From assembly GCA_963823665.1 (NCBI GenBank), contig CAWGMQ010000004.1, positions 2,208,001 through 2,272,000 of the forward strand: a stretch of 64,000 nt of DNA. Reading direction: 5' to 3'. The notes beneath the pieces were generated by a model, which searched no databases, was not told where the DNA came from, and was given only the letters and a program-made list of their open reading frames with translations. The stretch is from an uncultured Planctomycetota bacterium. Its GTDB lineage: Bacteria; Planctomycetota; Planctomycetia; Isosphaerales; Isosphaeraceae. Numbering within the stretch: the first letter of the stretch is position 1; every line of letters begins with the position of its first letter. Of the stretch, positions 4,376-52,842 are shown one piece after another. The position numbers and the translations under genes are program-made.

Positions 4376-5962
4376 TCACGACCTCCTCTGGCGGTCAGGG
4401 TTGGTTGGCTGCGAGCCCGCCGGGCCAGCACCCTTGTCGGGTGGCCTGAGCCGCCCGAAGGTGTGCAGTCGCTCGCCCGCACCGGGCCCCGTCGGCCGCT
4501 CCGTGATCCGCACGTGCGGCACGACCGAGAGGCCAACGAACAGCGGGGTGTCGTCCGGATTGGGCTCGGCCAGCTCGATCCGCACCGGCAGGCGCTGTGT
4601 AACCTTGACGTAATTGCCGGTGGCGTTCTCGGGCGGCAGCAGCGATTCCGACAGGCCCGTCCCAGGGCTGAAGCCGGCCACGCGCCCCGTAAAGACGCGG
4701 CCCGGGTAGGCGTCGACGTAGAGGTCAACCGGCATCCCTATCCGGATGTAGTGGAGTTGTGTCTCTTTATAATTAGCGTCGATCCAAACGTAGTTTGGGC
4801 GGATCGAGAGCAGCGTCTGACCAGGCTGGACTCGGTTGCCCGGGTGAACCTGCCGGTCCTGGACATAGCCGGCAACCTCGGAGCGAACTTCGGTCCAACT
4901 GAGCCGGAGCCGGGCTAGAGCGAGCTGCTCAAGGGCGCCGGCGACGGCGGCCCGCGCCACTCGAACGGCCGGGGCCCGCTCGACCACCGCCTCCAGCCCC
5001 TCGCCGGCCGACTTGTCCCCGTTGGGGCGGAGGAAATCCGCGAAGGCCTTCGCCTGCTCGGCGTCCTTCGGGTCGAACGGGATACCCACCTGGGCCAGGG
5101 ACGACGCAATGTCGGAAACGGCGGTCTGGACCGTCGACTGCTGGACCTCGAGGTCCGCGGGCAGCTTCAACGGGTCCTTGTAGTCCGGGGCCAGTCCGAG
5201 CGTGGCGCGAGTCTGCTCGATCGCTGCCCACGCCTCCTTCTCCTGCTCGACGGCGACTTTCAGGGTGTTGTTCCTCTGGTCGACATCTTCCTTGCTGATG
5301 CCTCCGCCCGGCAGGAGCTCCTCGCCCCGGCGGAAATTGTTCCGCGCCAGCTCCAGACTTGCCTGCCTGCTCTTGAGCGTGGCGAACTGGGCGTTCAGAA
5401 TGGCGACCTGGCGCCGCAGGGCCTCCTGGGCATTCTTCCTCTGGTAATAAGACCCACGCGCCCGGGCGATCTGCGAACCGACCTGCGCCTGCGCCTGCAC
5501 GACGTTGGCTCTGGCCTCCTCGAGCGACGCCTCAGCCTGCGCGACGGCCACCGCAAACGGCTCGCGGTCGAGCTTCACCAGCAAGTCCCCGGGCTCGATC
5601 CGATCATTCTGGTCGACCAGCACCTCGGTGACAACGTCCTCGATGCGGGGGCTCACATACGTGATGTGGCCGGCAACGAACGCATCGTCGGTCTCCACCG
5701 TCTCGAGCACCTCCCGCATGAAAGGTATGCCCTTGGAGAACGCCACCCAGAGGACCGCGGCCGCGACTGAGCCGATGGCGAACCGGCGCCCCCAGCGAGG
5801 CCGTGGCTTCTCTGGCTGCCGAGGTCGAGTGTCACCTTCGTCGAGATCTCGGGTGCCGCCCAGGTCGGCCACGATATGGGAGTCGAGGGCGTATACAACG
5901 TCCGCACGGGCGTTAACGCTCGGGGCCAATGGGTCGCGCGTCGTGAATTCAGTCGATTGCAT
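4376..5962 (-). CDS. HlyD/EmrA-family membrane fusion protein
   Basis: TDDAFV, ANYKETQL and LPPENATGNYVKVTQRLPVRI motifs. GGAGG RBS precedes MQST. Confidence 0.93.
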   Translation of the reverse strand: MQSTEFTTRDPLAPSVNARADVVYALDSHIVADLGGTRDLDEGDTRPRQPEKPRPRWGRRFAIGSVAAAVLWVAFSKGIPFMREVLETVETDDAFVAGHITYVSPRIEDVVTEVLVDQNDRIEPGDLLVKLDREPFAVAVAQAEASLEEARANVVQAQAQVGSQIARARGSYYQRKNAQEALRRQVAILNAQFATLKSRQASLELARNNFRRGEELLPGGGISKEDVDQRNNTLKVAVEQEKEAWAAIEQTRATLGLAPDYKDPLKLPADLEVQQSTVQTAVSDIASSLAQVGIPFDPKDAEQAKAFADFLRPNGDKSAGEGLEAVVERAPAVRVARAAVAGALEQLALARLRLSWTEVRSEVAGYVQDRQVHPGNRVQPGQTLLSIRPNYVWIDANYKETQLHYIRIGMPVDLYVDAYPGRVFTGRVAGFSPGTGLSESLLPPENATGNYVKVTQRLPVRIELAEPNPDDTPLFVGLSVVPHVRITERPTGPGAGERLHTFGRLRPPDKGAGPAGSQPTNPDRQRRS

Positions 5963-6025
5963 GGTGTCCTCCATCGCCTCGGTCGACCCCACGGCCGCCG
6001 GGTGAGATTTCGATGTCGCAGCCGA

Positions 6026-6112
6026 TCAGCCGCGGGCTATATCGAGGAGCCGCCCGAACAGCATTGCGATAAGGCAAACAAGTAACTCTAGAATGAGCAT
6101 ATTGGCGAGCAT
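6026..6112 (-). CDS. 28-aa single-TM small protein (MLANMLILELLVCLIAMLFGRLLDIARG), below the ORF-track cutoff
   Basis: GGGAGG lies 8 nt before the ATG. The ORF is a hydrophobic helix followed by basic residues, and sits between the STAS and HlyD genes on the same strand. Confidence 0.55.
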   Translation of the reverse strand: MLANMLILELLVCLIAMLFGRLLDIARG

Positions 6113-6126
6113 CGCTAGTACCTCCC

Positions 6127-6426
6127 TCAAAGGTGCCGATCGATCCGGAGAGCTGGCGCGCCGACGATATCCGCCACGATGGCCTTCATCAGGCAGTCCG
6201 CCGCCACGAGCTCGGCGCCTCGGGCGTGCATGGCCGCCAGCAATTTCTCACCGGCGCCGTCAAGGGACACAAGCGCCGCCAGATCCACGCGGTCGACAGG
6301 CCTGCCCTCTTCGGCCACGATCCGCTGCCAATAGGCCGCCAGTTCGCCGACCCAAGGCCCAGCCAGCTTCCCTTCGAGCTGGAGTGTCAAGCTCGTCGTG
6401 TCGGTGTGCATGGTAATCCGGAGCAT
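6127..6426 (-). CDS. Stand-alone STAS-like domain protein
   Basis: MLRIT...LQLEGKLAGPWVGEL...VDLAALVSLDGAGEKLL pattern. Confidence 0.8.
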   Translation of the reverse strand: MLRITMHTDTTSLTLQLEGKLAGPWVGELAAYWQRIVAEEGRPVDRVDLAALVSLDGAGEKLLAAMHARGAELVAADCLMKAIVADIVGAPALRIDRHL

Positions 6427-6456
6427 CGCTCTTTCCCCCCTTCGAACAGGTGCTAA

Positions 6457-6473
6457 AGCACGGCCTGTTCCAA
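6457..6473 (-). promoter_or_regulatory. Sigma54 (-24/-12) promoter of the STAS-efflux operon
   Basis: Minus strand TTGGAAC-AGGCC-GTGCT has exact GG-N10-GC spacing. It lies 30 bp before the STAS start, directly downstream of a bEBP gene. Confidence 0.7.
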
Positions 6474-6581
6474 AGGCGAAAGTTTCCCGCTGTCGGGCCA
6501 CAAGAGGAGCCATCCCAGGAACTTGCGATTTGGGCCGGGCGGGCTGTGTTCCGGGAGCAGTGGCGAAGTGCCAGAGGACGG

Positions 6582-6618
6582 GTGCCAACGGACGGGCACA
6601 GTGCCAAGGTGCTGGCAC
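6582..6618. promoter_or_regulatory. Tandem palindromic enhancer sites GTGCCA-N6-TGGCAC
   Basis: 6601-6618 GTGCCAaggtgcTGGCAC is perfect. 6582-6599 GTGCCAacggacGGGCAC has one mismatch. An extra half-site lies at 6568. Confidence 0.65.
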
Positions 6619-6620
6619 TA

Positions 6621-8165
6621 TTACGGTCGGGAGAGGCCGAGCTTCTTCATCTTCCACTGCAACGTGGAGCGCTTCATCCCCAACCGGGCTGCGGCCCCCT
6701 TGGGACCGCCCAGTACCCAGTCCGTCTCGCGTAAGGCCCCAAGAATGTGCTCCCGCTCGGCCGCGGCCAGTGTCGCTCCCGCGGTGGTCGGCGCCGGGGC
6801 CAGCGGCTCCGCCGGAGGTAAGTCACCGAGCGGGATCTGGAGAGTTGGGCCTGGCGAGAGGATCACCGCGCGCTCGATAACGTTTTGCAGCTCCCGCACG
6901 TTGCCCGGCCAGCGGTAGCGTGCCAGGGTTTCCATCACTGCGGTCGGGATGGTCTCGATCCGCCGGCCCATCCGCCGCGCGAACCGCTGCGTGAAATGCC
7001 GCACCAGCCGCGGGATGTCTTCCGGGCGCTCTCGCAGCGGCGGCAGCACGAGCGGGAAGACGTTCAGTCGGTAGTAGAGATCTTCGCGGTAGCGGCCGTC
7101 GGCGACCATTCGCGCGAGGTCGCGGTTCGTGGCCGCCACGAGGCGAACGTCTACCCGAATCGTCCGCGTACTGCCCAGCCGCTCGAATTCCTGCTCCTGC
7201 AAAACGCGGAGCAGCTTGGGCTGCAGTTCCGGTGGGATGTCGCCGACTTCGTCGAGGAACAATGTCCCCTGGTGCGCCAGCTCAAAGCGGCCCATCTTTT
7301 GGCTGATGGCGCCGGTGAACGCGCCCTTCTCGTGGCCGAACAACTCGCTCTCCAAGAGGCCGGTGGGGATCGCGGCGCAGTTAAGCTTGACAAACGTACG
7401 CTCGCGGCGCGGGCTGAGGTCGTGAAGGGCTCGGGCGATGAGCTCTTTACCCGTGCCGGTCTCGCCGCCGATCAGGACGGTAGACCCGGTGCAGGCGACC
7501 GTCTCAACTTGCTTGAGCACTCGGCGCAGCGTGAGGCTCTCCCCGATGATCTCCCCGAAGTTGTGCTCGGTGCGGGCTTCCTCTTCGAGGTAGGCCTTCT
7601 CCTGCGAGAGTTGGTCCTTGAGAGCTTCGATCTCCTGGAATGCCAGGGCGTTCTCAACCGCGAGAGCTACCTGATTAGCGACGTGCTGGAGGAAGCCGAC
7701 ATCGGCCGCGTCGTACGCGGTGAGCTGCTTTGAGACCAGAACCAGCGTACCCAGCCGCCGCCGCGATGTGGTTAGCGGAAGCTCGCAGACGCTCCGGCCT
7801 CCGGAGGGCCGCACTTGTTCCAGGAACCGCGGCCAGCGCGTCTCCTCGGCCACGTCTGCGAGGATCAGTGGTTGCTGGGTTTGCCACACCAGCCCCTCCG
7901 GCAATTCTTCGACCGGAAACTCCACCCAGGGGCGTGTGGTGGCTTCGTGTCCCTCCAGGATGTGCAGCCGCATGGTCTGGCTTGCCGCCTCGTGTATGAC
8001 GAGGCCGAGGTAGTCGAATCGCACCACCTCGTGAAGCCGGCCGGCCAGTTCGTGGAACAGCGCGGAGAGATCGCGGTGGGAGATGATCGCTTCCGAAACG
8101 GCCAGCAAGGCCCGGTACGGCCCGCCAGAGGCCGTGGCCGGGCCGTCTACGTGAGCGGCTGTCAT
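6621..8165 (-). CDS. FhlA-like sigma54-dependent activator (GAF-AAA+-HTH)
   Basis: GETGTGKE, ESELFGHEKGAFTGA and LFLDEVG motifs, a C-terminal AAARLGMKRSTL HTH and an N-terminal GAF-like region. Confidence 0.95.
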   Translation of the reverse strand: MTAAHVDGPATASGGPYRALLAVSEAIISHRDLSALFHELAGRLHEVVRFDYLGLVIHEAASQTMRLHILEGHEATTRPWVEFPVEELPEGLVWQTQQPLILADVAEETRWPRFLEQVRPSGGRSVCELPLTTSRRRLGTLVLVSKQLTAYDAADVGFLQHVANQVALAVENALAFQEIEALKDQLSQEKAYLEEEARTEHNFGEIIGESLTLRRVLKQVETVACTGSTVLIGGETGTGKELIARALHDLSPRRERTFVKLNCAAIPTGLLESELFGHEKGAFTGAISQKMGRFELAHQGTLFLDEVGDIPPELQPKLLRVLQEQEFERLGSTRTIRVDVRLVAATNRDLARMVADGRYREDLYYRLNVFPLVLPPLRERPEDIPRLVRHFTQRFARRMGRRIETIPTAVMETLARYRWPGNVRELQNVIERAVILSPGPTLQIPLGDLPPAEPLAPAPTTAGATLAAAEREHILGALRETDWVLGGPKGAAARLGMKRSTLQWKMKKLGLSRP

Positions 8166-9504: not shown

Positions 9505-12500
9505 CTAGACCCCGAACTTGTTATCGTTGCTCGTGGAGGCGAAGTTGCCAACGACCACGGACAGCGTATCAAGGAAAAACGTGCCGAGGTTATAGATGCC
9601 TCCCCCGATGCCCTGGCCTACGCTTCCGCCGGAGCCGGCCAGCCCACCCTGGGCCAGGTTGGCGCTGATGACGCTCGTCGTGACGGTGGCCGTGGCTCCC
9701 TGGTCGTTGAAGATGCCACCGCCTAGACCGTCTCCGCCACTGCCACCCGTGCCACCGGCGCCGCCTTCGGCCGCGTTCGCAAGGATCGCGGAGTTGCCAA
9801 TCGAAAGCGTGGCGGGGGCACTGTAAACCGCGGGGGAGTTGAAGAGCCCACCACCCTCACCCGCCCCGCCTGTGCCGCCGCCTGCGCCGCCGGCACCACC
9901 GATCGCCTGGTTCAGAGTAATGGTACTGTTGGTCACGGAGAGCGAGGTGGCCTGGTAGCTTTGAGCCATGCACAGCCCGCCGCCCTGGCCGGCGCCGCCC
10001 ACGCCGCCTGAGGCCCCTGTTCCTCCAGCACCGCCGGCGCCCCCCTGTGCCACGTTAGAGATGAACAGGCTGTTGCTCACGCTGGTGGTGGAAGACGTGG
10101 TGTTGGACAGGCCCCCGCCTTGGCCAGCACCCCCTGCGCCACCACTAGCACCGGCTGCCCCTGCGCCGCCGGCACCGCCGGAGGCCACGTCATGCACGAA
10201 AGAGCAGCCGTTGACTGTGGCGCTGGAGCCGCCGTCGACATTCATCCCACCTCCCTGGGCATACGCCCCTGCCACACCCGGGCTGCCACTGGTGCCCGCA
10301 CCGCCAGCGCCGCCCTGGGCCTGGTCGTGCGTGAACGTGGTGTTCGACACGACGACGGTGCTCAAGTAATCGACGTCGAGGCCGCCGCCGACGGCGAAGC
10401 CGAAAAACGAGTTCGAACTGCTGGCTCCGCCCTGGGCCACGCATTGCGTGAAATTGCAATTGGCAAGCGCCATGGTACTCTCGCCACTGACGAACATGCC
10501 GCCACCTTCGCCGTCGCTACCGCCGCCGTAGCTACCGCTTTCACCGGCGCCGCCCACAGCCACGTCCTGCTGGAAGTTGCAGTTGGTGAATGTGGCCGTC
10601 GCGCCCGAGAACGGCGAAAGGACTACGGTCGCGCCGCCGCCGTAGCCCTCCCCTCCGGAGGTGCTCCCGCTACCGCCGATGGCGCTGTTTCCGATGAAAT
10701 TGGTGTTACTCACCTCGCTTGTCCCCTGGGAACCAACCGACAATCCGCCGGTCCCCGCGATACCTCCGAAAAGGCCTGCGCCCCCCAAAGCCTGGTTGCC
10801 TGTGAACGTGCAGTTGCTCATGTCGAGCGCTCCGGTGGATGCGCCACCGGAGCCGGCGCCGCCACCCGCGCCGGAGCTATCCGCCCCGCCCTTCGCGAGG
10901 TTATCCACGAAAACGGTGTTGGTGATCGTCGCCGAATCGCAACCGAGCCCGCCTCCGCCTGAACCGCCGCCCTCTGCAGTGCTGCCGGTTGCCGGGCCGC
11001 CCTTCGCCTGATTCCCGGCCAGCGTCACGTTGGACAGGACCAGCGGCGCACCGGAGCCGACTCCGCCACCGCCGGCTCCGCCGCCAAATGTGGTTTCGGC
11101 CGGGCCGCCCTGGGCGAGATTGTCGTCCACGGCGCTGGAGCTGACCGTCAGTGCGCCGGATGGGCAGTACAACCCACCGCCTGAAGCCGACCCGCCCCCG
11201 AGGGGGAACGAAAAAATCCCTGAAATCCCTGAAGTGGTTCCGGAGCGGCCGCCGGAGAAACTCCCCGTCGCGTGATTGCCTTCCACGATGCTGTCAGTCA
11301 CGCTCGCGTTGACCTGGGCGCTCGCGACCCCGCCGCCGTTGCCGGCACCAGACGGACCGCTGCCATGTGCTGCGTTCGAAGCGACAGTCGTTCCGTTGAT
11401 CGTCAGCGTGGTGGCCGCCTGAGGCGCCTGAAAGCCGAAATCGAACCCATCGTCGATGCCGCCCCCGAAACCGGTTGAGCCTTGCAGGATGACCGTGATC
11501 CCGTTCAGGACATCCGTGGCGAGGTTGCCGCCCTGTGCTGTGTTGCCGTTGAGCGCGCTCTGCGAAATGGAGACATTGCCGGCGACGGCCCCCAGCGCGC
11601 CGCCTCTGCCGGAGCCGGCATCGGTCGGGTACGGAGGGTATGCATTAGAGACCGAATACAAGAGGCTGGAGCCACCCAGGGATTGGTTTCCCGTGAACGT
11701 GCTGTTGCCCACGACCAGGCTTGGCGTCGCCACCGTGAAGAAGGCGCCCTGGCCAATGGCGCCGCCCATTGCGGTGCCGACCACAACAAACGCCGCTGTG
11801 CTGCCCTCCGCGTTACCGTTGCTGCCGCCCTGCGCCAGGTTGTTCGTCAGCGTGCTGTTCGTAACGGAGAGCGCTCCGCCATCGTTCCAGAGCCCGCCGC
11901 CGCCCGCTACGCCAAGCAGGCTGGCGCTCAAGCCACCTGGGAGCGTGACGGCCACGCTCACCGCACCACCACTTGCGGCCACGGCCCGGTCGCCGGTGAA
12001 CGTGCTGTCGTTTATGGTGACCGTGCCGGCTTCGTTGTCGATGGCACCGCCGAACGCATTGCCGCCGCCGGTACCCCCGAGAGCCAGATCACCCGTAAAG
12101 GTGCTCTGCGAGACAGTCAGTGTCGCCCCCGGCTCGGTCTCCACCCCGCCACCCCGGCCGGCCCCGTCGCCGAACAGGCCACCTCCCGGCACTCCCTGCG
12201 CCACGTCAGCAGAGAGCACATCTTGGGTCAGCGTCAGGTTCCCCGCATTGAGGATCGCGGCCCCGTCGGTGGCTAAACCGTCCGTGAGCGTTAGACCGGA
12301 AATCACCACTTTCGCGCCACTGCCGATCTCGAACAACCGCGTTGCAGCATTGCCACTGATGGTCACGCCCGCATTGGGGCCCGTGATGGTCTCTAACCCG
12401 GTCGTGTCGTTCAGTACGAGCTGGCCGAGAATCGGACTAAGATGAATTGTCTGCGCAGTGTGGAACACCGTTTTGTCGAACGTGATCGTCTCGGTTCGTC

Positions 12501-12702
12501 CATTCGTATTCGCCTCGACGATCGCCTGGCGCAGGTCAGTCAAGCCGGCGACGGGCGTATCAGTGGGGTTGTTGACGACGATCGTGGAGAGCAGCGTGCG
12601 TGCCTCCAGCTCCAGCAGCGCCGGCCGGATTCGCCACCGTCGACGTCCGTGGAACGTACCCCGCCCGCCCGTCCGCTCGTGCCCCGTCAAGTTGTGACTC
12701 AT
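9505..12702 (-). CDS. Large Gly-rich extracellular beta-helix-like protein with planctomycete LExRxLL export motif
   Basis: RRRWRIRPALLELEARTLLS N-terminus, CSLREA-like TDLRQAIVEAN, and many N-x-A-x-GG...GGG repeats. GGAG precedes ATG 12702. Confidence 0.85.
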   Translation of the reverse strand: MSHNLTGHERTGGRGTFHGRRRWRIRPALLELEARTLLSTIVVNNPTDTPVAGLTDLRQAIVEANTNGRTETITFDKTVFHTAQTIHLSPILGQLVLNDTTGLETITGPNAGVTISGNAATRLFEIGSGAKVVISGLTLTDGLATDGAAILNAGNLTLTQDVLSADVAQGVPGGGLFGDGAGRGGGVETEPGATLTVSQSTFTGDLALGGTGGGNAFGGAIDNEAGTVTINDSTFTGDRAVAASGGAVSVAVTLPGGLSASLLGVAGGGGLWNDGGALSVTNSTLTNNLAQGGSNGNAEGSTAAFVVVGTAMGGAIGQGAFFTVATPSLVVGNSTFTGNQSLGGSSLLYSVSNAYPPYPTDAGSGRGGALGAVAGNVSISQSALNGNTAQGGNLATDVLNGITVILQGSTGFGGGIDDGFDFGFQAPQAATTLTINGTTVASNAAHGSGPSGAGNGGGVASAQVNASVTDSIVEGNHATGSFSGGRSGTTSGISGIFSFPLGGGSASGGGLYCPSGALTVSSSAVDDNLAQGGPAETTFGGGAGGGGVGSGAPLVLSNVTLAGNQAKGGPATGSTAEGGGSGGGGLGCDSATITNTVFVDNLAKGGADSSGAGGGAGSGGASTGALDMSNCTFTGNQALGGAGLFGGIAGTGGLSVGSQGTSEVSNTNFIGNSAIGGSGSTSGGEGYGGGATVVLSPFSGATATFTNCNFQQDVAVGGAGESGSYGGGSDGEGGGMFVSGESTMALANCNFTQCVAQGGASSSNSFFGFAVGGGLDVDYLSTVVVSNTTFTHDQAQGGAGGAGTSGSPGVAGAYAQGGGMNVDGGSSATVNGCSFVHDVASGGAGGAGAAGASGGAGGAGQGGGLSNTTSSTTSVSNSLFISNVAQGGAGGAGGTGASGGVGGAGQGGGLCMAQSYQATSLSVTNSTITLNQAIGGAGGAGGGTGGAGEGGGLFNSPAVYSAPATLSIGNSAILANAAEGGAGGTGGSGGDGLGGGIFNDQGATATVTTSVISANLAQGGLAGSGGSVGQGIGGGIYNLGTFFLDTLSVVVGNFASTSNDNKFGV

Positions 12703-12752
12703 GGGTCTGTCGCTCCCGTTGTGCCGCAAAACCTGCCAATGGGATTCATGAG

Positions 12753-12796
12753 ATCCCCCTATCCCTAGAGCCCCATTCCCTGACCAGGTTGTTACG
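12753..12796 (-). promoter_or_regulatory. 44-bp conserved upstream element, copy 1; putative ECF promoter
   Basis: Minus strand CGTAACAACctggtcagggaatggggCTCTAgggataggggga; 41/44 identical to 16650-16693. Confidence 0.75.
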
Positions 12797-13039
12797 TGCC
12801 AAGATAGTGGTTGGCCTCTTGGAGCCGGCGGACCGCGCGGATTGGCCGAATTTACGGGTCAAGCCTCGGCTGGAAATCGATCAGCGCGCAGCCACAACTA
12901 TCTAGCGCGAGTTGTTTCCGATTTGACTTGATGTACTGCCCAGATAGGACCGGCCTTGTCGACGCGAGCCCGGCATTCGCGGATGATCGGCTCAGCCGGC
13001 GCGTCGAATTTCGCCAGCGGAACCCATGGGGGACCGACG

Positions 13040-13295
13040 TCACCTGATCCTGAGCGTGCGGCAAGTCGCTTCGTAGCTCGATTCCAGATCGAGCGAGATG
13101 GCCCAGTTTTCCTTGAGCCAGATAGGCAGCGTCGGCAGGGGTTGGCCGATGGCCAGCGGATGATACCAATTGTCCATCATGCGGCGGCGATCTTCGTAGC
13201 GCATGCGAAGCGTCGCGGCGTATATCGGCGGCGGTTCGCTTCCCAGGGCCGGATCGACGTCATGAAGAAAGTTCATCAATTCCGCATACGACAGC
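13040..13295 (-). pseudogene. C-terminal fragment of a DUF4058-like planctomycete protein
   Basis: YAELMNFL...PPPIYAATLR...LAIGQPLPTLPIWL...LDLESSYEATCRTLRI. The fragment has no N-terminal part and abuts the kinase stop codon. Confidence 0.65.
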
Positions 13296-13298
13296 GCG

Positions 13299-15938
13299 TT
13301 ATCGCGGCCGGCCGTTCCGCTTGACCTGCTCTCGGCATTCTTGCACCCACTGGGCCGACGGATAGGGCCAGTCCTTGCGTCGCGAGCCCAGCTCGTGGCC
13401 GCGTTCCAGGCTCGAGAGGGCCGCGGCGAGCTTCCCTTGTTTGAAGAGTGCCATGCCCAGGTCGCAGTGACTCTCGGCATGATCGGGTCTCAGCGCGATC
13501 GCCTTGCGGTAGGCAGCCTCCGCCTCGTCGGGACGACCGGCGTCATCTAAAAAATTGCCGAGTTTGTAGTGGGCGTCGGCGAAATCGGGCTTTAACTCGA
13601 TGGAACGCCGGCAAACGGCGATCGCCTCGTCAAGCTGGCGCTGCTCGCCGAGGACCCAGCCAAGCTTGAAGTGAGCCATGGCATAATCCGGCTTCAGCCC
13701 GATGGCCTGGCGATAGGTGACGGTCGCCTCGGCCAGCCGCCCGGCGCCGGTCAGCGCGTTGCCGAGGTTGTATCGCACTCCAGGGCTGTCGGGCCGCAGC
13801 GCCACGGCCACCGTCAAGAAACGAATCGCCTCCTCGTGCTTCGGCGGCTCGCATTCTTTCAGCGCGATGCCGAGGTCGTGGTTGATCCAGAAGTCTGCCG
13901 GGAAAGCCTGCTGGGCGCGCTGTAAGAGCGCCAGGGCAACGGCGCTCGCACCTCGCTGTTGCAGACCCAGTTCCAGGACGAACAATGCTTCCGACGGCTG
14001 TAGCGCATAATCGACCTCGCGCGCGAGCTTCTCCATCGCCTGGCGGTCATTCTTCTCGCGCGCCATGCGCACCCCCTGGCGCCAGGGGTCAGAGTCTACC
14101 AGGGCAAGAACCTGCTTGAGCCAGGCCGCTTCCGGCGCCTTTTCGTGATTCGCCAGGATCATCCAGTGGTCCAGGGCCGCCATGAGGGTGGCGCGAACCC
14201 GAGCAGGCCGGCGCGAAAGCGCGCGGGCCGTCTCCTCGGGTGCCTTCGCATTTCTGTGCAAACCATATGTTACGAAGGCCCGTTCATATTCCTTACGCGA
14301 AAGATGGATGACAAAATGGTTCTCCTCGACGTCCGACTGGCGAAGGCGGATGGCCTCGAGGCTCTTGAGCAAGGTAACGTCGGCCTGCTCTTCGGCCAGC
14401 TCGCGCACCAAGCCTTTGACGCGCTCGGTCACGGCCGGATCGGCGGCACAGTAAGGAAGAAGGGCGTCAGCGCGCGCGGCTGCTGCCTGCGCTTGCGACA
14501 ACTTACCTTCGTTCTGAAGGCGTTCCGAATCTTCCACGGCGGCGTCACGTTGGGCGGTTGACTTGGCACGCTGCGCGGCCCGGTCGCGCATGATCCAGCC
14601 GATGCTGGCGGCCAGCACGCTCAAGGCGGCGAGTGAGGCCGCTGCCGCCGAGAGCATCACCCCCCGGTGTCTGCGCGTCCACCTTCGCGTGCGATTGAGC
14701 AAAGTCACGGGCCTGGCGAGGATCGGCTCGTCGCTCAAGAACCGCTGCAAGTCGCTGGCCATTTCCTGGGCTGTTGCGTAGCGCTCTGCGGGATTCTTGG
14801 CCATCGCCTTGAGCACAATGGTTTCCAGATCCGCGGGCACTGCCTTGTTGAGCTTGCGCACGGGCCTGGGTTCTTCGATCGCGATCTGCCGCAGCAGCTC
14901 GTGACGGTCATGGCCGTTGAACGCGGGCTCGAGGGCCAAAAACTCATAGAGAGTTGCACCCAGTGAATAGAGGTCGGTGCGGTGGTCCACGCCGATGGGC
15001 TGGGCCAGGGCTTGTTCCGGGCTCATGTAGCGCAGCGTGCCCACGAGGTCTCCGGTGACAGTCAGTCCGACTTGTCCCTGGCGGCAGTGGGCCAGGCCGA
15101 AATCGGTAACCCACAAGTGGACACCGCTGGCGTCGGGTCCGTCTCCCCCTGGGGCGATCGCAGAACCCGCTTCGACGAGCAGGTTGGCCGGCTTGATATC
15201 GCGATGCACGACACCGAGCTGGTGAGCGTGTTCCAGCGCAAAGGCGGCCTGCATACCCAGGAGCGCCGCCGCGCGGACGTGCACGGAACTAGCAGCAAGA
15301 GTCTCCGTGGCTTGCGCAGGCGCAGTAGAATGTCCATTGCTCGGTAGGGTGCTGAAGTCCGACAAACCGCAATCTTTCCCGCGGCGCGAGTCTTTGACGA
15401 TCGCGGCGAGTGTTTGCCCCTCAATGTACTGCATCGCGTAGTAGTGGACGCCGCGTTCGCAGCCGACGCCGAAGACGGGCACGATGTTCGTATGGTGCAG
15501 GCTGGCGGCGGCCTGTGCTTCGTTCTTGAAGCGCTGTAACTGCCTGGCGTCGAGCGCGGCCGCAGACGGCAGCACCTTGAGCGCGACGCGGCGGCCGAGT
15601 GAGATCTGCTCGGCTTCGTAGACGACACCCATACCGCCGCGGCCAATTTCACGGACGAGCTGGAAGTCGCCGAGGCGGCCGAGGTCGGCTTGCCATTCGC
15701 TGGCCGGTGGCAGCTCTTGCGGGGCTGGATCTCGCAGATTGAGCGACGCGCCATGCAGGAATTCCAAGCTCGCCAGACAGGCTTTCAGAGGCTCTGCCAG
15801 GGCAGGGCAGCGGGCGGTTAGATCCTCGGGGTTCAGCCGGGCACCGGCTTCCAGCTTCGTCAGGAACTCTTCGAGAATGCTGATGACTTCGCTGGTTGGC
15901 TCGAGCGCCTCTTCGAGGGGAGGTACGATGGCCTTCAT
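13299..15938 (-). CDS. Hanks-type Ser/Thr kinase with one hydrophobic segment and C-terminal TPR repeats
   Basis: GRGGMGVVY, VALK, HRDIKPANLL, DFGLA and GTLRYMSPEQ motifs; TPRs such as YRQAIGLKPDYAMAHFKLG. Confidence 0.95.
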   Translation of the reverse strand: MKAIVPPLEEALEPTSEVISILEEFLTKLEAGARLNPEDLTARCPALAEPLKACLASLEFLHGASLNLRDPAPQELPPASEWQADLGRLGDFQLVREIGRGGMGVVYEAEQISLGRRVALKVLPSAAALDARQLQRFKNEAQAAASLHHTNIVPVFGVGCERGVHYYAMQYIEGQTLAAIVKDSRRGKDCGLSDFSTLPSNGHSTAPAQATETLAASSVHVRAAALLGMQAAFALEHAHQLGVVHRDIKPANLLVEAGSAIAPGGDGPDASGVHLWVTDFGLAHCRQGQVGLTVTGDLVGTLRYMSPEQALAQPIGVDHRTDLYSLGATLYEFLALEPAFNGHDRHELLRQIAIEEPRPVRKLNKAVPADLETIVLKAMAKNPAERYATAQEMASDLQRFLSDEPILARPVTLLNRTRRWTRRHRGVMLSAAAASLAALSVLAASIGWIMRDRAAQRAKSTAQRDAAVEDSERLQNEGKLSQAQAAAARADALLPYCAADPAVTERVKGLVRELAEEQADVTLLKSLEAIRLRQSDVEENHFVIHLSRKEYERAFVTYGLHRNAKAPEETARALSRRPARVRATLMAALDHWMILANHEKAPEAAWLKQVLALVDSDPWRQGVRMAREKNDRQAMEKLAREVDYALQPSEALFVLELGLQQRGASAVALALLQRAQQAFPADFWINHDLGIALKECEPPKHEEAIRFLTVAVALRPDSPGVRYNLGNALTGAGRLAEATVTYRQAIGLKPDYAMAHFKLGWVLGEQRQLDEAIAVCRRSIELKPDFADAHYKLGNFLDDAGRPDEAEAAYRKAIALRPDHAESHCDLGMALFKQGKLAAALSSLERGHELGSRRKDWPYPSAQWVQECREQVKRNGRPR

Positions 15939-16573
15939 AGCAGTTCCTCCGCTTGCAGCAGCCGGCGGAGCTGATCGACGGCGCGCACCCAGAGGATGCG
16001 AACGGCTCCGGCAGACCGGCCCATGCGGCGGGCCACCTCGGCGAACGGCAGGCCTTCCAGGTTCCGCAGGACGAGCACTTCACGGTAGTCTGCGGGCAGG
16101 CGAGCCAACTGATCGGCGAGGCGAGCGGAGTGTTCGCGGCGCCCGGCGCGGCTGCTGGGCGAGCTCGAGCGGCCGACGAGCGCGGTCTCAAGAGGAATTG
16201 TTCCCGAGGACCGCTCCATTGCGGAGACCTGCCCGTTCAGCGACACTTCCCGCCGGGTGCTCCGTTTCTTCGCCCCGACTTGACGCTGGACGACGCGGGC
16301 CAGGTTGTAGAACAAGATCTTGCGCAGCCAGGCGATCCATTCTCGATGGCTTGTGCCGCGGAAGTGTTGGAAGTCGCGGCAGGCATCAAGGAATGTCTCT
16401 TGGACCACGTCCGAGGCATCGACGCGGCCTTGGAGTCGGAGATCAATTTGCGCACGGGCCAGGAGGGCAAGGTCGGTGCGATAGAACTCCAGCACTCTGC
16501 CCAGCGACTCGGTGCGCCCGCCGCGGGCGTCAGCCAGAAGCTGCTCCGGATCGGATCTGCCCTTGGCGTTCAT
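15935..16573 (-). CDS. ECF sigma-70 factor, Planctomycetaceae-type (TIGR02984-like)
   Basis: VDASDVVQETFLDACRDF...WLRKIL and LPADYREVLVLRNLEGLPFAEVA. ATGA overlap with the kinase gene. Confidence 0.93.
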   Translation of the reverse strand: MNAKGRSDPEQLLADARGGRTESLGRVLEFYRTDLALLARAQIDLRLQGRVDASDVVQETFLDACRDFQHFRGTSHREWIAWLRKILFYNLARVVQRQVGAKKRSTRREVSLNGQVSAMERSSGTIPLETALVGRSSSPSSRAGRREHSARLADQLARLPADYREVLVLRNLEGLPFAEVARRMGRSAGAVRILWVRAVDQLRRLLQAEELL

Positions 16574-16649
16574 CAGGCCCCCCTGTATCTTTAGCCTGGA
16601 TCGTCAGTTTCCGCGAGCAGTTCCTCGGTTGCAATGCTGCGGTCCCACA

Positions 16650-16693
16650 ATCCCCCTATTCCTAGAGCCCCATTTCCTGACCAAGTTGTTACG
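16650..16693 (-). promoter_or_regulatory. 44-bp conserved upstream element, copy 2; putative autoregulated ECF promoter
   Basis: Minus strand CGTAACAACttggtcaggaaatggggCTCTAggaataggggga, 76 bp upstream of the sigma start. Confidence 0.75.
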
Positions 16694-16699
16694 CGCGAC

Positions 16700-18654
16700 T
16701 CACAAATCAATCTGCGTCCCGATCTCAACGATCTGCTCGGCGGGCATGCCATACCGCCTTTCTTCATGGACGGCGTTACGGTTGAGGTACGAAAAGATCG
16801 CCTCAGGGATGCGGCTGATGCTCCCCTCATTGCTCGCCACGATCGTCTCGTGACCGATGTAATAAGTGGCATGATCGGGATCGAACGTGATTGCTTCGTC
16901 CTGTGCCACCGCCCGCAGCACCGGAACCAGCAGTGGCTCTTCCATGTAACCGAATGAGACAATCAGCTTGTAGAAGCCGTCGCCCAGCGCGGCCAGCGTG
17001 TAGCGCGACTCGTCTTCCACCTCCGCCCTTGGCATCTCCCGAACGGTCAGCAAGATAACCGTATCATGCAGCGAGCGGCTGCGCTCGACGTGATGCATGA
17101 GGACCGGGGGCACATGGTCGGCGCTGGGCGCAAGGAAGACCGCACTGCCGCGCACCCGCGAGCAAAGCCAGCGCTCGATCGAGGGCCGTGCCTTCTCGAG
17201 GCTAGAGAACTTCGACTTGTATCGCTCCATCAAGGCCGTCCGGCCCCGGCTCCAGATCAGCATGCCGGCGATGAGTGCAGCACCGATCAGCATCGGCACG
17301 TAACCGCCCTCGAAGAACTTGAAGAGATTGGCCACCAGGAACGGGATATCGAAGCACAGAAACAGGGCAAGCAGAGCCCCGGCTTTCCATTTGCTCCAGC
17401 CCCATGAGTAGCGTACGACGATGTAGTAGAGGATCGAGGTAATCGCCATCGTTCCCGTAACAGCGATTCCATACGCCGCGGCCAATCTCACGGACTCGCG
17501 AAACGTCAAGACCAGTGCAAGACAACCAATCGCGAGCAAAGTGTTGACTTCCGGAATGTAGATCTGCCCCTCGGTGTGATACGCCGTGTGCTTGATGGTC
17601 ACCCTGGGAAGATACCCGAGCAGCATCGCCTGGCGAGTCAGCGAGAATGCCCCGGAAATCAATGCTTGAGAAGCGATCACCGTCGCAGCGCTTGAGAGTA
17701 ACACGAGCAAGTAAGTGGGCAGACCTGCCGGCACCATGCCGTAGAACGGGTGCTCTACGGTCTCCGGATAGCGCAGGATCAGCGCCCCTGCCCCAGGTAG
17801 CCCAGAACGAGCGCGGGCAAGACGAAGAATGTCCACGTGAGGCGAATGGGCCGAATCCCAAAATGGCCCATGTCCGCGTACAACGCTTCACCGCCCGTCA
17901 CGGCGAGGACGACTGAACCAAGAATGAGCAGGCCGTGGATCCCATGGCGAAGGAAGAACGCAGCCCCGTGATGTGGGGAGAGTGCCACGAGGATCTGCGG
18001 CGCCTGGACGAGATGATACACGCCCAGCACTGCCATCGTCGCGAACCAGACCACCATCACAGGACCAAAGAGCTTGCCGACCTTCCCGGTTCCGAGCCGC
18101 TGGATCGAAAAGAGCGCCACCAGGATAGTGCATGTGACCGGCAGCACCAGCGGCGAGAGACGAGGACTGGCCACGGCCAGCCCTTCAACGGCGCTCAACA
18201 CGGAAATAGCCGGAGTGATCACGCCATCGCCATACAGCAGTGACGCACCGATTACAGCCAGCAATGCCATCCCGGTCACCTTGCCGCTTTGGACCGCATG
18301 CGTCCGGAACCGCTCCGGCACAATCGCCAGCAGCGCGAAAATTCCCCCTTCGCCACCGTGGTCGGCACGCATGACGAACGTCAAATATTTGACGGTCACC
18401 ACCATCACGAGTGCCCAGAACATTAGCGACAGGATCCCGAACAGATCGTCGACGCCGGCCTTTGTGCCCCCAGCCGCATGCATACATTCCCGCAGCGTAT
18501 AGAGAGGGCTGGTGCCGATGTCACCGAACACCACGCCCAGCGCACCGAGAGCCAGAGCCGCCAAGCTTGTTCGATGAAGAGTATGGTGCGCCGCAGCTTC
18601 CGCCGGTGCAGGCGTCAATTCCTTCACATCTTGTGTCGCGATCAATGGACCCAT
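16700..18654 (-). pseudogene. kup: KUP/HAK/KT potassium transporter split by a 1-bp frameshift (real or sequencing error)
   Basis: GVVFGDIGTSPLY, EALYADMGHFG and GQIYIPEVN motifs fall in two ORFs. One extra G in the run at 17785-17788 restores YLGQGALIL. Confidence 0.9.
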
Positions 18655-23013: not shown

Positions 23014-23129
23014 ATTGTAGCAGGCACACTCCGTGTGCCGCCCGCCAAGAGCTTTAGAAGGCTAGCAATGACCCACCCCGTGCTCTTATTGTAGCAGGCA
23101 CACTCCGTGTGCCGCCCGCCAAAAGCTTT
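23014..23129. repeat. Two direct copies of a GTAG-type REP-like palindrome (42 bp, period 74 bp)
   Basis: attGTAGcaGGCACACtccGTGTGCCgcccgccaaRagcttt at 23014 and 23088; one mismatch. Confidence 0.85.
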
Positions 23130-23176
23130 GCAATGGCAGCACCGGCCCGACCAATGCCTTCTCAAGGATCAGCGAG

Positions 23177-50244: not shown

Positions 50245-52842
50245 ATGACGAAATCCACTTGCCTCCATATCCAGGATCGAGAATCAGGCCCGATCCGCGT
50301 TGTAGAGCTGCCGTGGATCTCGGTACGCATCGGCCGCGCAGCCTACTGCGAGGTACGGCTCGCGGGGCTTGATCTACCAGATGAGGTCTGCCGCTTGCAG
50401 CGCCGGGGACTCACGTGGCGCCTTTTACCGACTGGCAGCGACTGTCCCGTCTTCATGAGCGGTCGGCGCCTGGGTGGCGTCTGCACCTTGCCGTTTAACG
50501 TTCCCTTTCGCGCGGGGCCATATTGCTTCACTCTCCGCCAGGACCGCTCTGTCCAACCAGACTGGCACATGTATGCAGGCCCGGCACCACTTCAAGAAGG
50601 TATCATAGAAAAACCGCCACTCGCCGAACTGGAGCCTGATCCGGTACCAGTGTCAGAGAGCTTGATTCTGCCTGCAGTAACCCGTTGCCGGATTGCAGCG
50701 CCTCCGCCCGTTGCTGACACAGCGCGCCTCCACAGGAACACGGTAAAACCACCGGTCACTGAAAAACGACCGGAACCCAAGCACTATGGTTCGCCACTAC
50801 TTGATTGCTACGAGCAATGGGATGCCCGCTGGAAGGCATTGAATGCTAAGGTGAATGCGCGTGCCGAGAGCAGGCTAAAGGCCCCCGAGTTCAGCCGGCC
50901 AGTCTACCGTTCCGACCTGGAGCCAGTGCCTCTTAGAGAGGCTCACACCCCTCTGATTGAGGTACCAACGAGCGCTGATCCCATCCGGGAGCTACAGTCG
51001 GAAACGATCGTATCCCAGCCACCTGTTCCGGCTCCAACCAGCTTGACCGAAACAGTTGAACTCGGACAACAGTTTACAGAGTTTCCTACGGAACTTCTCG
51101 CCGAGCAGCCGCTCATTGCAGCACACCAGACTGCCAACCTAACGGTCGTGGACAGCGTTTCTGATGCGCTCGATCTCATTCCAGCACCGCGGACTGCCAA
51201 TTCGACTGCTGTGGTCGATGTTTCTGATGAACAGCAGCATATCGTAGCACCCCAGACTGCCGACCTACTTACCGTGGGCTACGTTTCTGATGCGCTCGAT
51301 CTCATTCCAGCACCGTGGACTGCCAATTCAACCGCTGTGGATGACGATCCTGATGCGCAGCACGTCGTAGCACCCCAGACTGCCGACCTACTCGCCGTGG
51401 ACCATGTTCCTGATGCGCAGCAGTCGACCGCACCACCCCAGATTGGTGATCCAACCAAGGAGTCTGCTTCTGTCAATCCGGTTGACGTGCTCCCGGATTG
51501 CGAGATCGAGGACATGCAGTCCGAGCTTGAGCCCTCGACAATCAATCAGTCTTTCTACCAGGACGATTCCGAATACGAGACTCAGCCGAGGCATGCGGCA
51601 CCATCACTGACCAAGGATGTGGAATGGCCCTCGGCCAAGGATATACTCGCGGTCTACCAGGCCGCTCGACCCTGCCAGTCTCCAGTGAACACCGGTAAAA
51701 CCACGACAAAGAAGATCAGTCGACCCAGTCTTATGCCAACCCCGGAGCGCGAACCCTCCCACTGGGCTCCACCGATCGTTCTGACTGGTCCTGTTGCAGT
51801 CATCTTTATACTCGCGGCCGGACTCCTTGGCTGTTCACTCTCATGGTCGTGGGCTCAAGATTCCTATGCGGCGGCGATTGTGACCGATCGTCTCTTGACC
51901 AGCGATTTGACCCTCCAGCGCAGCCGTCTGCCTGACTCGGTCCAACCCCCGTCCGGAAGCTGGCTGACCTCAACTCCAGCGCACTTGACTAGCTGGGCTG
52001 TATTCCTCGGATACTTCCGCGGAGCGGAAAACCAATCTCCTGACGAAAGTGTAGCGCTCCTGGAACGTGCTCTGGCCGCTTCACCCGTTAATGCACAGGC
52101 CCGGCTTACACAGACGCTGCTTGAACCAGTTGATAGCACGAAAGCCGTATCTTCGCGCAGCATGGGTCTCAGCCGCGATGTAGCTAGTCTATCTTGCAGC
52201 GCTCGCCGACTTGTAGCAGCAGGGAAGAAAGACGAAGCACTTGCTCTCTTCGGACGCGCACTTTCGCTCGCTGTCCCTGAGAAGTCGTCTCGTTACCACT
52301 TGCCACGATTCAGCGAAGATCCAGGTGCTCCCCGCTATCTGCTACCCGGCGAAGAGCCGGTACGCGAGATCATTGTAGAATTTATCTCCCAGAACACATG
52401 GACATTCGAAGAATGGTCGCGCGTGCTCCCGGAGAATCCGGTTGTCTTGATCGCGGCCGCTCGGCTTCTGCGCGAGCGAGGTCGCGGCGAAGTAGAAATC
52501 ATGCTGGACCGCATTCTCAAGCAAACGGTGATTCCGCCCTCTTCCTCCGAGGCTGGGCCAGTCAAGCTTGCTGCATGCGCAGAGGCTCTCGCGTTTCGCT
52601 CGCGTTTCAAAGAATCCCATCAGCTTTATCATCAGGCGATTGATTTGATCGATGACCCGACTATCCGGCGGTCCTGGTGGTTCAACCTGGCGGATATCGC
52701 CTATCGGTCAGATGACGATATAGAGCGTCAGGCTGCACTCCGATCGGCGTTGGCTGTTGCATTTAGCGATGACATCACGCGCCGCGCAACTGATATTCAG
52801 CGTACAACCCTCGTGCGGTCAACAGGTGTAAAGGCAAACTAG
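50245..52842 (+). CDS. Protein with FHA-like N-terminus, acidic repeat linker, one TM and TPR-like C-terminus
   Basis: VRIGRAAYCEVRL, TM GPVAVIFILAAGLLGCSLSW and a helical C-terminal region. Confidence 0.6.
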   Translation: MTKSTCLHIQDRESGPIRVVELPWISVRIGRAAYCEVRLAGLDLPDEVCRLQRRGLTWRLLPTGSDCPVFMSGRRLGGVCTLPFNVPFRAGPYCFTLRQDRSVQPDWHMYAGPAPLQEGIIEKPPLAELEPDPVPVSESLILPAVTRCRIAAPPPVADTARLHRNTVKPPVTEKRPEPKHYGSPLLDCYEQWDARWKALNAKVNARAESRLKAPEFSRPVYRSDLEPVPLREAHTPLIEVPTSADPIRELQSETIVSQPPVPAPTSLTETVELGQQFTEFPTELLAEQPLIAAHQTANLTVVDSVSDALDLIPAPRTANSTAVVDVSDEQQHIVAPQTADLLTVGYVSDALDLIPAPWTANSTAVDDDPDAQHVVAPQTADLLAVDHVPDAQQSTAPPQIGDPTKESASVNPVDVLPDCEIEDMQSELEPSTINQSFYQDDSEYETQPRHAAPSLTKDVEWPSAKDILAVYQAARPCQSPVNTGKTTTKKISRPSLMPTPEREPSHWAPPIVLTGPVAVIFILAAGLLGCSLSWSWAQDSYAAAIVTDRLLTSDLTLQRSRLPDSVQPPSGSWLTSTPAHLTSWAVFLGYFRGAENQSPDESVALLERALAASPVNAQARLTQTLLEPVDSTKAVSSRSMGLSRDVASLSCSARRLVAAGKKDEALALFGRALSLAVPEKSSRYHLPRFSEDPGAPRYLLPGEEPVREIIVEFISQNTWTFEEWSRVLPENPVVLIAAARLLRERGRGEVEIMLDRILKQTVIPPSSSEAGPVKLAACAEALAFRSRFKESHQLYHQAIDLIDDPTIRRSWWFNLADIAYRSDDDIERQAALRSALAVAFSDDITRRATDIQRTTLVRSTGVKAN
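51112..51450 (+). repeat. Intragenic ~60-bp (20-21 aa) tandem repeats, about five units in A-B-A-B-A order
   Basis: cgtttctgatgcgctcgatctcattccagcaccg occurs twice; tcgtagcaccccagactgccgacctact occurs twice. Confidence 0.85.

What the first reader, a model, noticed from the sequence alone, without database searches (positions are those of the whole stretch)
9505..16693. Candidate self-contained ECF sigma / Ser-Thr kinase / secreted Gly-rich protein system, linked by a duplicated 44-bp promoter-like element
Seen: the same 44-bp non-coding element (41/44 identical) lies in the same orientation upstream of the sigma-kinase operon (16650-16693) and of the large LExRxLL protein gene (12753-12796). 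I noticed no other full copy in the window. On the coding strand it reads GTAACAAC-N17-CTCTA, the AAC-spacer-(-10) layout of ECF promoters. No anti-sigma gene is present. Established: ECF sigmas often autoregulate, and kinase-paired ECFs are common in planctomycetes. Inference: this is the promoter and direct target of this sigma/kinase pair, forming a switch for producing a surface protein. The spacer and downstream bases are also conserved, so the promoter may have been copied as a block.
Basis: partly seen in the sequence, partly recalled or inferred. Interest (0 to 1): 0.85.

Follow-up and report, generated by a model that had tools for sequence, protein, structure and literature searches.

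The report
Captured sigma promoter, kinase-tethered sigma
The repeated 44-base stretch is likely the promoter and ribosome site of a planctomycete sigma-factor gene, and a neighbouring surface-protein gene likely captured it (the sigma's first codons still follow it there), while the partner kinase is predicted to grip the sigma with a small built-in domain, which gives a testable switch for a sigma family whose targets are untested.

Summary
The repeat is real: 41/44 identical, and only two copies in the 16.5-Mb genome. It occurs 19 times in 11 of 121 family genomes, the same 11 that carry this sigma clade, always co-oriented with the sigma or LExRxLL gene where one follows. In three relatives it sits directly on the sigma ATG. 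Before LExRxLL genes it is followed by a relic of the sigma's first seven codons. So it is likely the sigma's own promoter plus ribosome site, captured by the LExRxLL gene. The window's two copies reflect cassette shuffling: a LExRxLL gene was likely deleted behind copy 1. Distant sigmas with the same recognition helix keep CGT(G/A)ACA-N16/17-G(C/G)C with free spacers, so the boxes are CGTAACA and GGCT; CTCTA is in only 11 of 19 copies. This covariation is one clade, not independent evidence. 'No anti-sigma' needs correction: the kinase's N-terminal helical domain is predicted to bind sigma region 4 (0.81, best control 0.07; mark reached by 116/157 solved and 2/215 mismatched pairs). No transcript data. 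The scan noted similar sigma-private promoters on other DNA of this genome. New variant of a known kind.

The parts
16650..16693 (-). Element copy 1: likely -35 CGTAACA (16687-16693), 17-nt spacer, likely -10 GGCT(CTA) (16663-16669), then a G-rich ribosome-site-like tract whose own ATG is lost. It begins 7 nt after the kup stop.
16574..16649 (-). Deletion-scar spacer. 50 of 54 nt match the DNA that follows a LExRxLL gene and precedes the sigma in relative G084. It holds the sigma's present ribosome site; the second promoter seen there in G084 is missing here.
15935..16573 (-). ECF sigma factor, TIGR02984 subfamily, 212 aa; DASD (Ser54) at the DAED position; region-4 helix GAVRILW
13299..15938 (-). 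Hanks-type Ser/Thr kinase, 879 aa. Catalytic motifs intact, one hydrophobic segment (aa 426-444), C-terminal TPR repeats.
15723..15911 (-). Kinase residues 10-72: helical domain of no Pfam family, without the HxxxCxxC zinc motif, predicted to bind sigma region 4 (anti-sigma-like or docking domain)
13040..13290 (-). 3' fragment of a DUF4058 gene (intact 243-aa version at the same place in G001)
12753..12796 (-). Element copy 2: likely -35 at 12790-12796, likely -10 at 12766-12772, ribosome site
12699..12749 (-). 16-codon leader ORF. It begins with a relic of the sigma's first 7 codons, and its stop overlaps the LExRxLL start (ATGA); likely translational coupling.
9505..12702 (-). LExRxLL-motif, Gly-rich 1065-aa protein; likely a right-handed beta-helix (low-confidence model); export inferred, not shown

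Best explanation
The 44-bp element is likely the promoter (-35 CGTAACA, 17 nt, -10 GGCT) plus ribosome site that this sigma clade reads on its own gene, and a LExRxLL beta-helix gene likely captured it together with the sigma's first seven codons, so in this window one sigma would drive both its own sigma-kinase operon (copy 1) and the LExRxLL gene (copy 2). Shown: the sequence relationships, the relic codons and the gene orders. Inferred history: an ancestor P-LExR1-sigma-kinase-DUF4058-P-LExR2 lost LExR1. Inferred switch: the kinase's N-terminal helical domain would hold the sigma by region 4 at the membrane. A signal at the TPR end would trigger phosphorylation of the sigma (candidate Ser54 of DASD and Ser/Thr in the linker, by analogy with EcfP and EcfK) and release it, giving positive feedback and output of the LExRxLL protein. 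The captured ribosome site would still serve LExRxLL translation by coupling.
For: Element and sigma clade occur in the same 11 of 121 family genomes, and all 14 sigma copies have an element copy upstream in the cassette. In 3 of 19 copies it ends on the sigma ATG. Relic codons 2-7 match sigma starts at 11.3 of 18 nt, against a shuffled mean of 6.2 and maximum of 8.3 (13 copies). The relic ORF overlaps the LExRxLL start by ATGA in 6 of 13 copies and is in frame in 2 of 13; the ribosome-site tract, which lay outside the search pattern, is 99% identical against 83% for third codon positions. Among 119 distant sigmas (<70% identity), the motif [CT]GT[AG]ACA-N14-18-G[GC]C lies upstream of 14 of 31 with a GAxR[MILV]LW helix and 2 of 88 without; 0.65 expected in shuffles. 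De novo search on 29 such upstream regions, close clade excluded, returns CGTGACA-N16-GCC, score 94 against 42-51 shuffled. Helix Ile/Val193 goes with -35 A in 8 of 8 rows, and Met with G in 13 of 13. None of the other 29 fetched TIGR02984-like paralogues of this genome has GAVRILW. Three promoter-LExRxLL units lie without their own sigma, each in a genome that has the sigma elsewhere. Complex model of sigma with kinase residues 10-72: 0.81 against best control 0.07 (mark reached by 116 of 157 solved and 2 of 215 mismatched pairs; runs agree in at least 89% of contacts; partner pLDDT at least 84), with the interface on sigma residues 167-174 and 192-207. Ser54 in 52 of 70 aligned sigmas.
Against: The helix-motif link is phylogenetically about one event: 2 independent pairs, sign test p = 1. 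The regular expression was set after viewing the sequences. A PWM trained on distant sigmas scores the window copies only 2.5 (rank 822 of 128,000 positions). An 8-row GAVRMLW subclade shows no motif, and one sigma with another helix (L193) has it. A broken paralogue of another clade in this genome (C5:1025845) is preceded by CGTAACA-N16-GGCTG. Co-occurrence of element and sigma is confounded by physical linkage. The invariance of the boxes in the 19 copies is partly built into the search pattern. The complex pass may reflect memory of solved anti-sigma/sigma-4 complexes and cannot tell inhibition from docking. Four paralogues with GAVRMLW or GAVRLLW helices (L006, L009, L016, L025) could cross-read the promoter. 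The G001 copy of this arrangement is decayed.
Confidence: 0.62

Rival explanations
1. The element is an ECF promoter read mainly by another sigma, such as a GAVRMLW paralogue or a general planctomycete ECF. The cassette would then be a downstream step of a cascade, not a self-contained switch.
For: At least 58 TIGR02984-like sigmas in the genome. Related CGTGACA-N17-GCC sites precede paralogue L025 and another LExRxLL gene at C7:661187, and CGTAACA-N16-GGCTG precedes a sigma of another clade.
Against: The A/G state of the -35 follows Ile/Val versus Met of the adjacent sigma in 21 of 21 rows with an R-[IVM] helix. The full element is absent from the 110 family genomes that lack this sigma clade.
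Confidence: 0.2
2. The two copies are by-products of recent duplication and deletion in a shuffling, partly decaying cassette. One or both are no longer functional in this genome, and sigma expression may come from kup read-through.
For: Clear deletion scars at 16574-16649 and in DUF4058. Both LExRxLL genes are decayed in G001:C4, and many relatives show frameshifts. Copy 1 starts 7 nt after the kup stop.
Against: All three genes are intact here. The deletion stopped just downstream of the element and spared it. The element is better conserved than the adjoining relic (77%), leader (74%) and third codon positions (83%).
Confidence: 0.12
3. The element is a recombination or attachment site, or the end of a small mobile unit, that moves the cassette.
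For: Homology ends sharply about 8 nt upstream (41% identity beyond). The cassette lies in different contexts, and kup is elsewhere in 5 of 5 relatives tested. The spacer is 91% conserved.
Against: Only 1-3 copies per genome, never inverted relative to the following gene. It ends in a ribosome site and ATG, and distant relatives keep the two boxes with unrelated spacers.
Confidence: 0.06

Closest known systems
Planctomycete kinase-associated ECF groups ECF59 (subgroup s2), ECF62 and ECF217 (Casas-Pastor et al. 2021, PMC7826278; supplement part 15 read whole, ECF217 passages read)
   Same: Kinase at +1 with one membrane helix; TPR-fused kinases (20% of ECF59s2); a Planc_extracel protein in the context of ECF217s1; no separate anti-sigma gene; longer linker (ECF59).
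   Different: The supplement text reports target promoters as not conserved (ECF62, ECF217) or only 'TC in -35' (ECF59). Here a two-box motif follows the sigma's helix. No WD40 repeats or zinc finger. Group assignment was not testable (no ECF Hub models).
ECF43 pairs EcfP/PknT (Vibrio parahaemolyticus) and EcfK/PknS (Xanthomonas citri) (PMC8999054 section 3.4 read; PMC13147305 passages read; Iyer 2020 not read)
   Same: Adjacent Hanks kinase with membrane helix; Ser/Thr at the DAED position (DASD here, STTA in EcfP). PknS also has an N-terminal helical region of 81 residues that was invisible in the crystal.
   Different: Phosphorylation is shown there and only inferred here. This sigma keeps two Asp of the motif. 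In the passages read no function is given for the PknS N-terminal helices, whereas the counterpart here is predicted to bind sigma region 4.
Class I anti-sigma domains, RseA/RskA/ChrR type (PMC7406223, passages read)
   Same: Short helical bundle whose first helix contacts the last helix of sigma region 4 and the -35-binding face.
   Different: Fused to a kinase; no Pfam or PDB sequence match; no HxxxCxxC in 70 of 70 rows. The helix-4/sigma-2 contact is at most weakly seen (sigma residues 30-38 and 77-84).

Membership tests
TIGR02984 Sig-70_plancto1 | score over curated cut-off 183.75 | tested here: met
   213.4 bits
Kinase-associated ECF (ECF59/62/217 type) | protein kinase gene at +1 | tested here: met
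   ATGA overlap; a kinase start follows in 79 listed relatives; 75 of 107 loci with enough downstream DNA
Kinase-associated ECF (ECF59/62/217 type) | membrane-bound kinase with intact catalytic motifs | tested here: met
   GxGxxG, VAxK, HRDxKPxN, DFG and SPE present; one hydrophobic segment, mean 1.95 (hydropathy only)
ECF62 | WD40 repeats and N-terminal zinc finger on the kinase (subgroups s1-s3) | tested here: not met
   TPR only; HxxxCxxC in 0 of 70
ECF59 / ECF217 / ECF62 | placement in the group by the group's HMM or tree | not testable with these tools
   ECF Hub models not held; reference proteins not fetched
ECF43-like phospho-activated sigma | Ser/Thr in place of an acidic DAED residue | tested here: met
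   DASD; Ser54 in 52 of 70, Asp55 in 70 of 70
ECF43-like phospho-activated sigma | direct phosphorylation by the cognate kinase activates the sigma | not testable with these tools
   needs a biochemical assay
Autoregulated ECF promoter | two boxes conserved upstream of related sigmas with free spacer | tested here: met
   CGT(G/A)ACA-N16/17-G(C/G)C in 14 of 31 against 2 of 88; de novo recovery
Autoregulated ECF promoter | boxes change with the sigma's DNA-reading residues independently of descent | tested here: inconclusive
   21 of 21 rows agree but only 2 independent pairs, p = 1
Autoregulated ECF promoter | sigma-dependent transcription start downstream of the -10 | not testable with these tools
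   needs TSS mapping
Class I anti-sigma domain | helical bundle binding sigma region 4 | tested here: met
   predicted only: 0.81 against best control 0.07; mark reached by 116/157 solved and 2/215 mismatched pairs
Class I anti-sigma domain | sequence similarity to known ASD families | tested here: not met
   no ASD family among the 25 of 36 Pfam families shown for 70 members; none among 11 PDB hits at E up to 10; no atlas hit
Class I anti-sigma domain | inhibits the sigma | not testable with these tools
   needs a reporter or in vitro assay
Planc_extracel / LEPR-XLL exported proteins | match to the family HMM | tested here: not met
   no Pfam or NCBIfam hit even at E 1; the LE-AR-TLL motif is seen directly; its link to export is recalled, not tested
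Mobile repeat (REP/MITE) | many copies at unrelated positions and orientations | tested here: not met
   2 copies in the genome; 1-3 per genome in relatives

The most novel reading that the evidence does not exclude
Planctomycete ECF-linked kinases are one-chain receptor + kinase + zinc-free anti-sigma: the N-terminal helical bundle masks the -35-reading helix of the cognate sigma until phosphorylation releases it. Each sigma reads a private promoter set by one or two helix residues (Ile/Val to CGTAACA, Met to CGTGACA). Surface-protein genes join a regulon by capturing the sigma's promoter, ribosome site and first codons as a block, which stays on as a coupling leader.
Probability: 0.4. Interest if true: 0.75.

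Novelty: new variant of a known kind. Interest (0 to 1): 0.52.

Why it matters
Kinase-linked ECFs are hugely expanded in planctomycetes (at least 58 TIGR02984-like copies in this genome). The current classification gives them no conserved target promoter, says they typically lack anti-sigma factors, and leaves open whether paralogues are redundant or specialised (PMC7826278). This locus supplies a concrete promoter, a candidate recognition residue, a candidate phospho-site and a predicted sigma-binding domain in a small portable cassette, so those questions become directly testable in a heterologous reporter. It also shows a snapshot of how a target gene can be wired into a regulon by promoter capture.

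Tried and rejected
Relaxed patterns show no wider regulon: GTAAC-N17-23-CTCTA 14 matches against 168 for the control; CGTAACA-N14-18-GGCT 11 against 51; GCGTRACA-N16-17-GSCY 36 against 40; most inspected sites lie in ORFs. The other 29 fetched TIGR02984-like paralogues and the 29 other fetched LExRxLL-like loci (internal repeats among them) lack the full element. Sequencing runs: no RNA holder was listed, so no TSS or expression test. De novo motif search on the other two helix classes gave no clean two-box motif (the score for one class was within shuffles). Tree-based independence test: not significant. Pfam, PDB and atlas searches for the kinase N-terminal domain found no family. The LExRxLL model is low-confidence (mean pLDDT 52, 9 rows), and its fold hits (parallel beta-helix lyases and adhesins, TM-score under 0.2) are only a lead. 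The CTCTA '-10' was rejected as the invariant box (11 of 19). A mobile-repeat reading was rejected. The transposase-like label for the insertion after the G033:C5 copy is recalled from its motifs and was not tested.
Full report
OBSERVATION. The element is present as described: 12753-12796 and 16650-16693, minus strand, 41 of 44 identical. A 31-nt pattern with up to 3 mismatches finds only these two sites in the 16.46-Mb assembly, control 0. Copy 1 lies 76 nt upstream of a TIGR02984 ECF sigma. The sigma overlaps by ATGA an 879-aa Hanks kinase with intact catalytic motifs, one hydrophobic segment and C-terminal TPRs. Copy 2 lies 50 nt upstream of a 1065-aa, 24%-glycine LExRxLL protein with no family hit. 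Atlas neighbours include Chlam_PMP and beta-helix clusters, and a low-confidence model looks like a parallel beta-helix. Export of this protein is inferred from the motif (recalled), not shown.

DISTRIBUTION. In 121 genomes of the family a degenerate 27-nt pattern gave 19 matches in 11 genomes, control 0. The sigma gene (79-100% DNA identity) gave 14 matches in the same 11 genomes. A scan of all GTDB genomes with an exact degenerate pattern gave 16 stretches, all from records titled uncultured Isosphaeraceae, Planctomycetaceae or Planctomycetota. Of the 19 copies, 3 end directly on the sigma ATG and 13 precede a closely related LExRxLL gene. Of those 13, 9 are followed by the sigma (with its kinase, except one locus where only part of the sigma is seen), 3 have no cognate sigma in the 20 kb fetched, and 1 is window copy 2. 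Two copies precede the sigma across a deletion scar (window copy 1 and G001:C4), and 1 is cut by an insertion right after the -10. The kup gene upstream of copy 1 lies elsewhere in 5 of 5 relatives tested, so the cassette changes context.

HISTORY. In the three copies on the sigma ATG the element reads promoter, G-rich ribosome site, then the sigma's first codons. Before LExRxLL genes the same ribosome site is followed by a relic of those codons: codons 2-7 match at 11.3 of 18 nt, shuffled mean 6.2, maximum 8.3 in 2000 shuffles. The element therefore started as the sigma's own 5' end and was captured by a LExRxLL gene (inference from these alignments). The relic ORF stops on the LExRxLL start by ATGA in 6 of 13 copies including the window's, is in frame in 2, stops 13 nt inside the gene in 3, and runs further in 2. 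The ribosome-site tract is 99% identical across the 13 copies, against 77% for the relic, 74% for the leader and 83% for third codon positions. This fits continued use through translational coupling.

The 76 nt between window copy 1 and the sigma match (50 of 54) the DNA that follows a LExRxLL gene in G084. G001:C4 still holds the first and last codons of a deleted LExRxLL gene at this place, plus the intact DUF4058 gene and remnants of the second LExRxLL gene. The most economical ancestor is P-LExR1-sigma-kinase-DUF4058-P-LExR2, with LExR1 deleted here. In 5 of the 9 P-LExR-sigma cassettes a second, diverged copy of the promoter stands before the sigma; the window has lost it.

WHICH BASES MATTER. 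Across 19 copies GGGCT is invariant while the next three bases are CTA (11), GAA (6), GAT (1) or AGA (1); the invariant part lay inside the search pattern, the variable part outside. From 80 metagenomic sigma loci (best 80 of 186) and genome loci I kept 142 distinct sigmas. Dropping the close clade, rows lacking the helix and rows with under 120 nt upstream left 119. The motif [CT]GT[AG]ACA-N14-18-G[GC]C, defined after viewing these sequences, lies upstream of 14 of 31 with a GAxR[MILV]LW recognition helix and 2 of 88 with other helices; shuffles give 0.65. De novo search on 29 such regions returned CGTGACA-N16-GCC with unrelated spacers, score 94 against 42-51. The fourth -35 base is A in 8 of 8 rows with Ile/Val193 and G in 13 of 13 with Met, plus one A row with an unrelated helix.

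Against this reading: the tree makes it essentially one clade (2 independent pairs, p = 1). An 8-row Met subclade has no motif. The distant-trained matrix ranks the window copies only 822nd of 128,000 positions. A broken sigma of another clade in this genome has CGTAACA-N16-GGCTG upstream. Relaxed genome searches show no excess over controls, so the regulon is likely small. Genome-wide, 14 of 58 strong TIGR02984-like sigmas but 1 of 81 weaker-scoring sigmas lie within 10 kb of a LExRxLL-like match (6.6% of the genome). Both lists are partial (150 of 456 and 150 of 259 candidates scored) and include this locus.

THE MISSING ANTI-SIGMA. The kinases behind these sigmas share an N-terminal helical domain with no Pfam, PDB or atlas match and no HxxxCxxC in 70 of 70 rows. 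A complex model of the sigma with residues 10-72 scored 0.81, best of 3 controls 0.07. That mark was reached by 116 of 157 solved and 2 of 215 mismatched pairs, counts that hold only roughly for my own alignments; the runs agree in at least 89% of contacts and partner pLDDT is at least 84. The interface covers sigma residues 167-174 and 192-207, including Arg192, Ile193, Trp195 and Val199. This is the region-4 face that helix 1 of class I anti-sigma domains binds (PMC7406223, passages), so the pass may partly reflect memory of such complexes, and it cannot separate inhibition from docking. The sigma has DASD at the DAED position (Ser in 52 of 70); in EcfP the residue phosphorylated lies in this motif (PMC8999054 section 3.4). 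X. citri PknS has 81 N-terminal residues predicted to be helical and unseen in the crystal (PMC13147305, passages).

MECHANISM. Shown: repeat, relic codons, gene orders, motif distribution. Predicted: sigma-kinase contact, beta-helix fold. Inferred: recognition of the promoter by this sigma, phosphorylation and release, coupling, export. Most likely the membrane kinase holds the sigma, a signal at the TPR end triggers phosphorylation and release, and the sigma then raises its own operon and the LExRxLL gene from the two copies (confidence 0.62). Rivals: read by another sigma (0.2), non-functional relic (0.12), recombination site (0.06).

KNOWN AND NEW. It works like ECF43 pairs and sits among the ECF59/62/217-type groups; the group could not be assigned. 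PMC7826278 (main-text passages; supplement part 15 whole; ECF217 passages) reports no conserved promoter for ECF62 and ECF217, only 'TC in -35' for ECF59, and that kinase-linked groups typically lack anti-sigma factors. That supplement was cut, and its promoter logos were not seen. Eight searches listed no paper describing this promoter, its capture or a kinase-fused anti-sigma domain in planctomycetes. Jogler 2012, Iyer 2020 and Wiegand 2020 were not read and may bear on this; of PMC11032199 I saw passages only. Earlier notes of this scan describe sigma-private promoters and a kinase-borne sigma-holding finger at other loci of this genome; they are unchecked and not independent support. Verdict: real, a new variant of a known kind, interest 0.52.

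Noticed in passing
window 16700-18654 (-): The kup potassium transporter gene is split into two overlapping ORFs (17779-18654 and 16700-17836) by an apparent frameshift (real or assembly error). Its stop lies 7 nt from element copy 1.
   Followed up: partly
G000:C7:661187-661215 (L261): CGTGACA-N17-GCCTCT precedes another LExRxLL gene (apparently frameshifted); a candidate target of a GAVRMLW paralogue such as L025.
   Followed up: partly
G000:C11:477466 (L241) and C5:1025845 (L236): CGTAACA-N17-GGCTGA precedes a stand-alone Ser/Thr kinase ORF, and CGTAACA-N16-GGCTGT precedes a broken TIGR02984-like sigma; possible extra targets or chance.
   Followed up: partly
L005-L034, L151-L230 upstream regions: Other sigma clades seem to carry other two-box motifs: TGTCC-N16/17-G(G/C)(A/C)G before several AxKRY-helix sigmas, and GCGGC/GTCGG..(C/T)TA before xSVxKLW-helix sigmas (12 of 34 by a loose regex); not recovered cleanly de novo.
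   Followed up: partly
L137 (G000:C10:1113593), L125, L128: A close LExRxLL paralogue in this genome has a different leader, shared with the LExRxLL genes that lie behind the kinase in G083 and G085. Leaders and N-terminal or C-terminal halves appear to be swapped among LExRxLL genes.
   Followed up: partly
L123/L130 (G033:C5:2865261): One element copy is cut right after the -10 by an insertion carrying a transposase-like ORF (label recalled, untested).
   Followed up: no
window 61125-61499, 60780-61167, 51103-51418, 23014-23157: Other direct-repeat families (75-nt, about 140-nt, 63-nt and 74-nt periods) listed by the repeat scan.
   Followed up: no
window 4376-8165 (-): A sigma-54-type (NtrC/FhlA-like) activator, a small STAS-like ORF and an HlyD-like secretion protein ORF lie just downstream of the cassette (labels from reading the translations, no search).
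   Followed up: no
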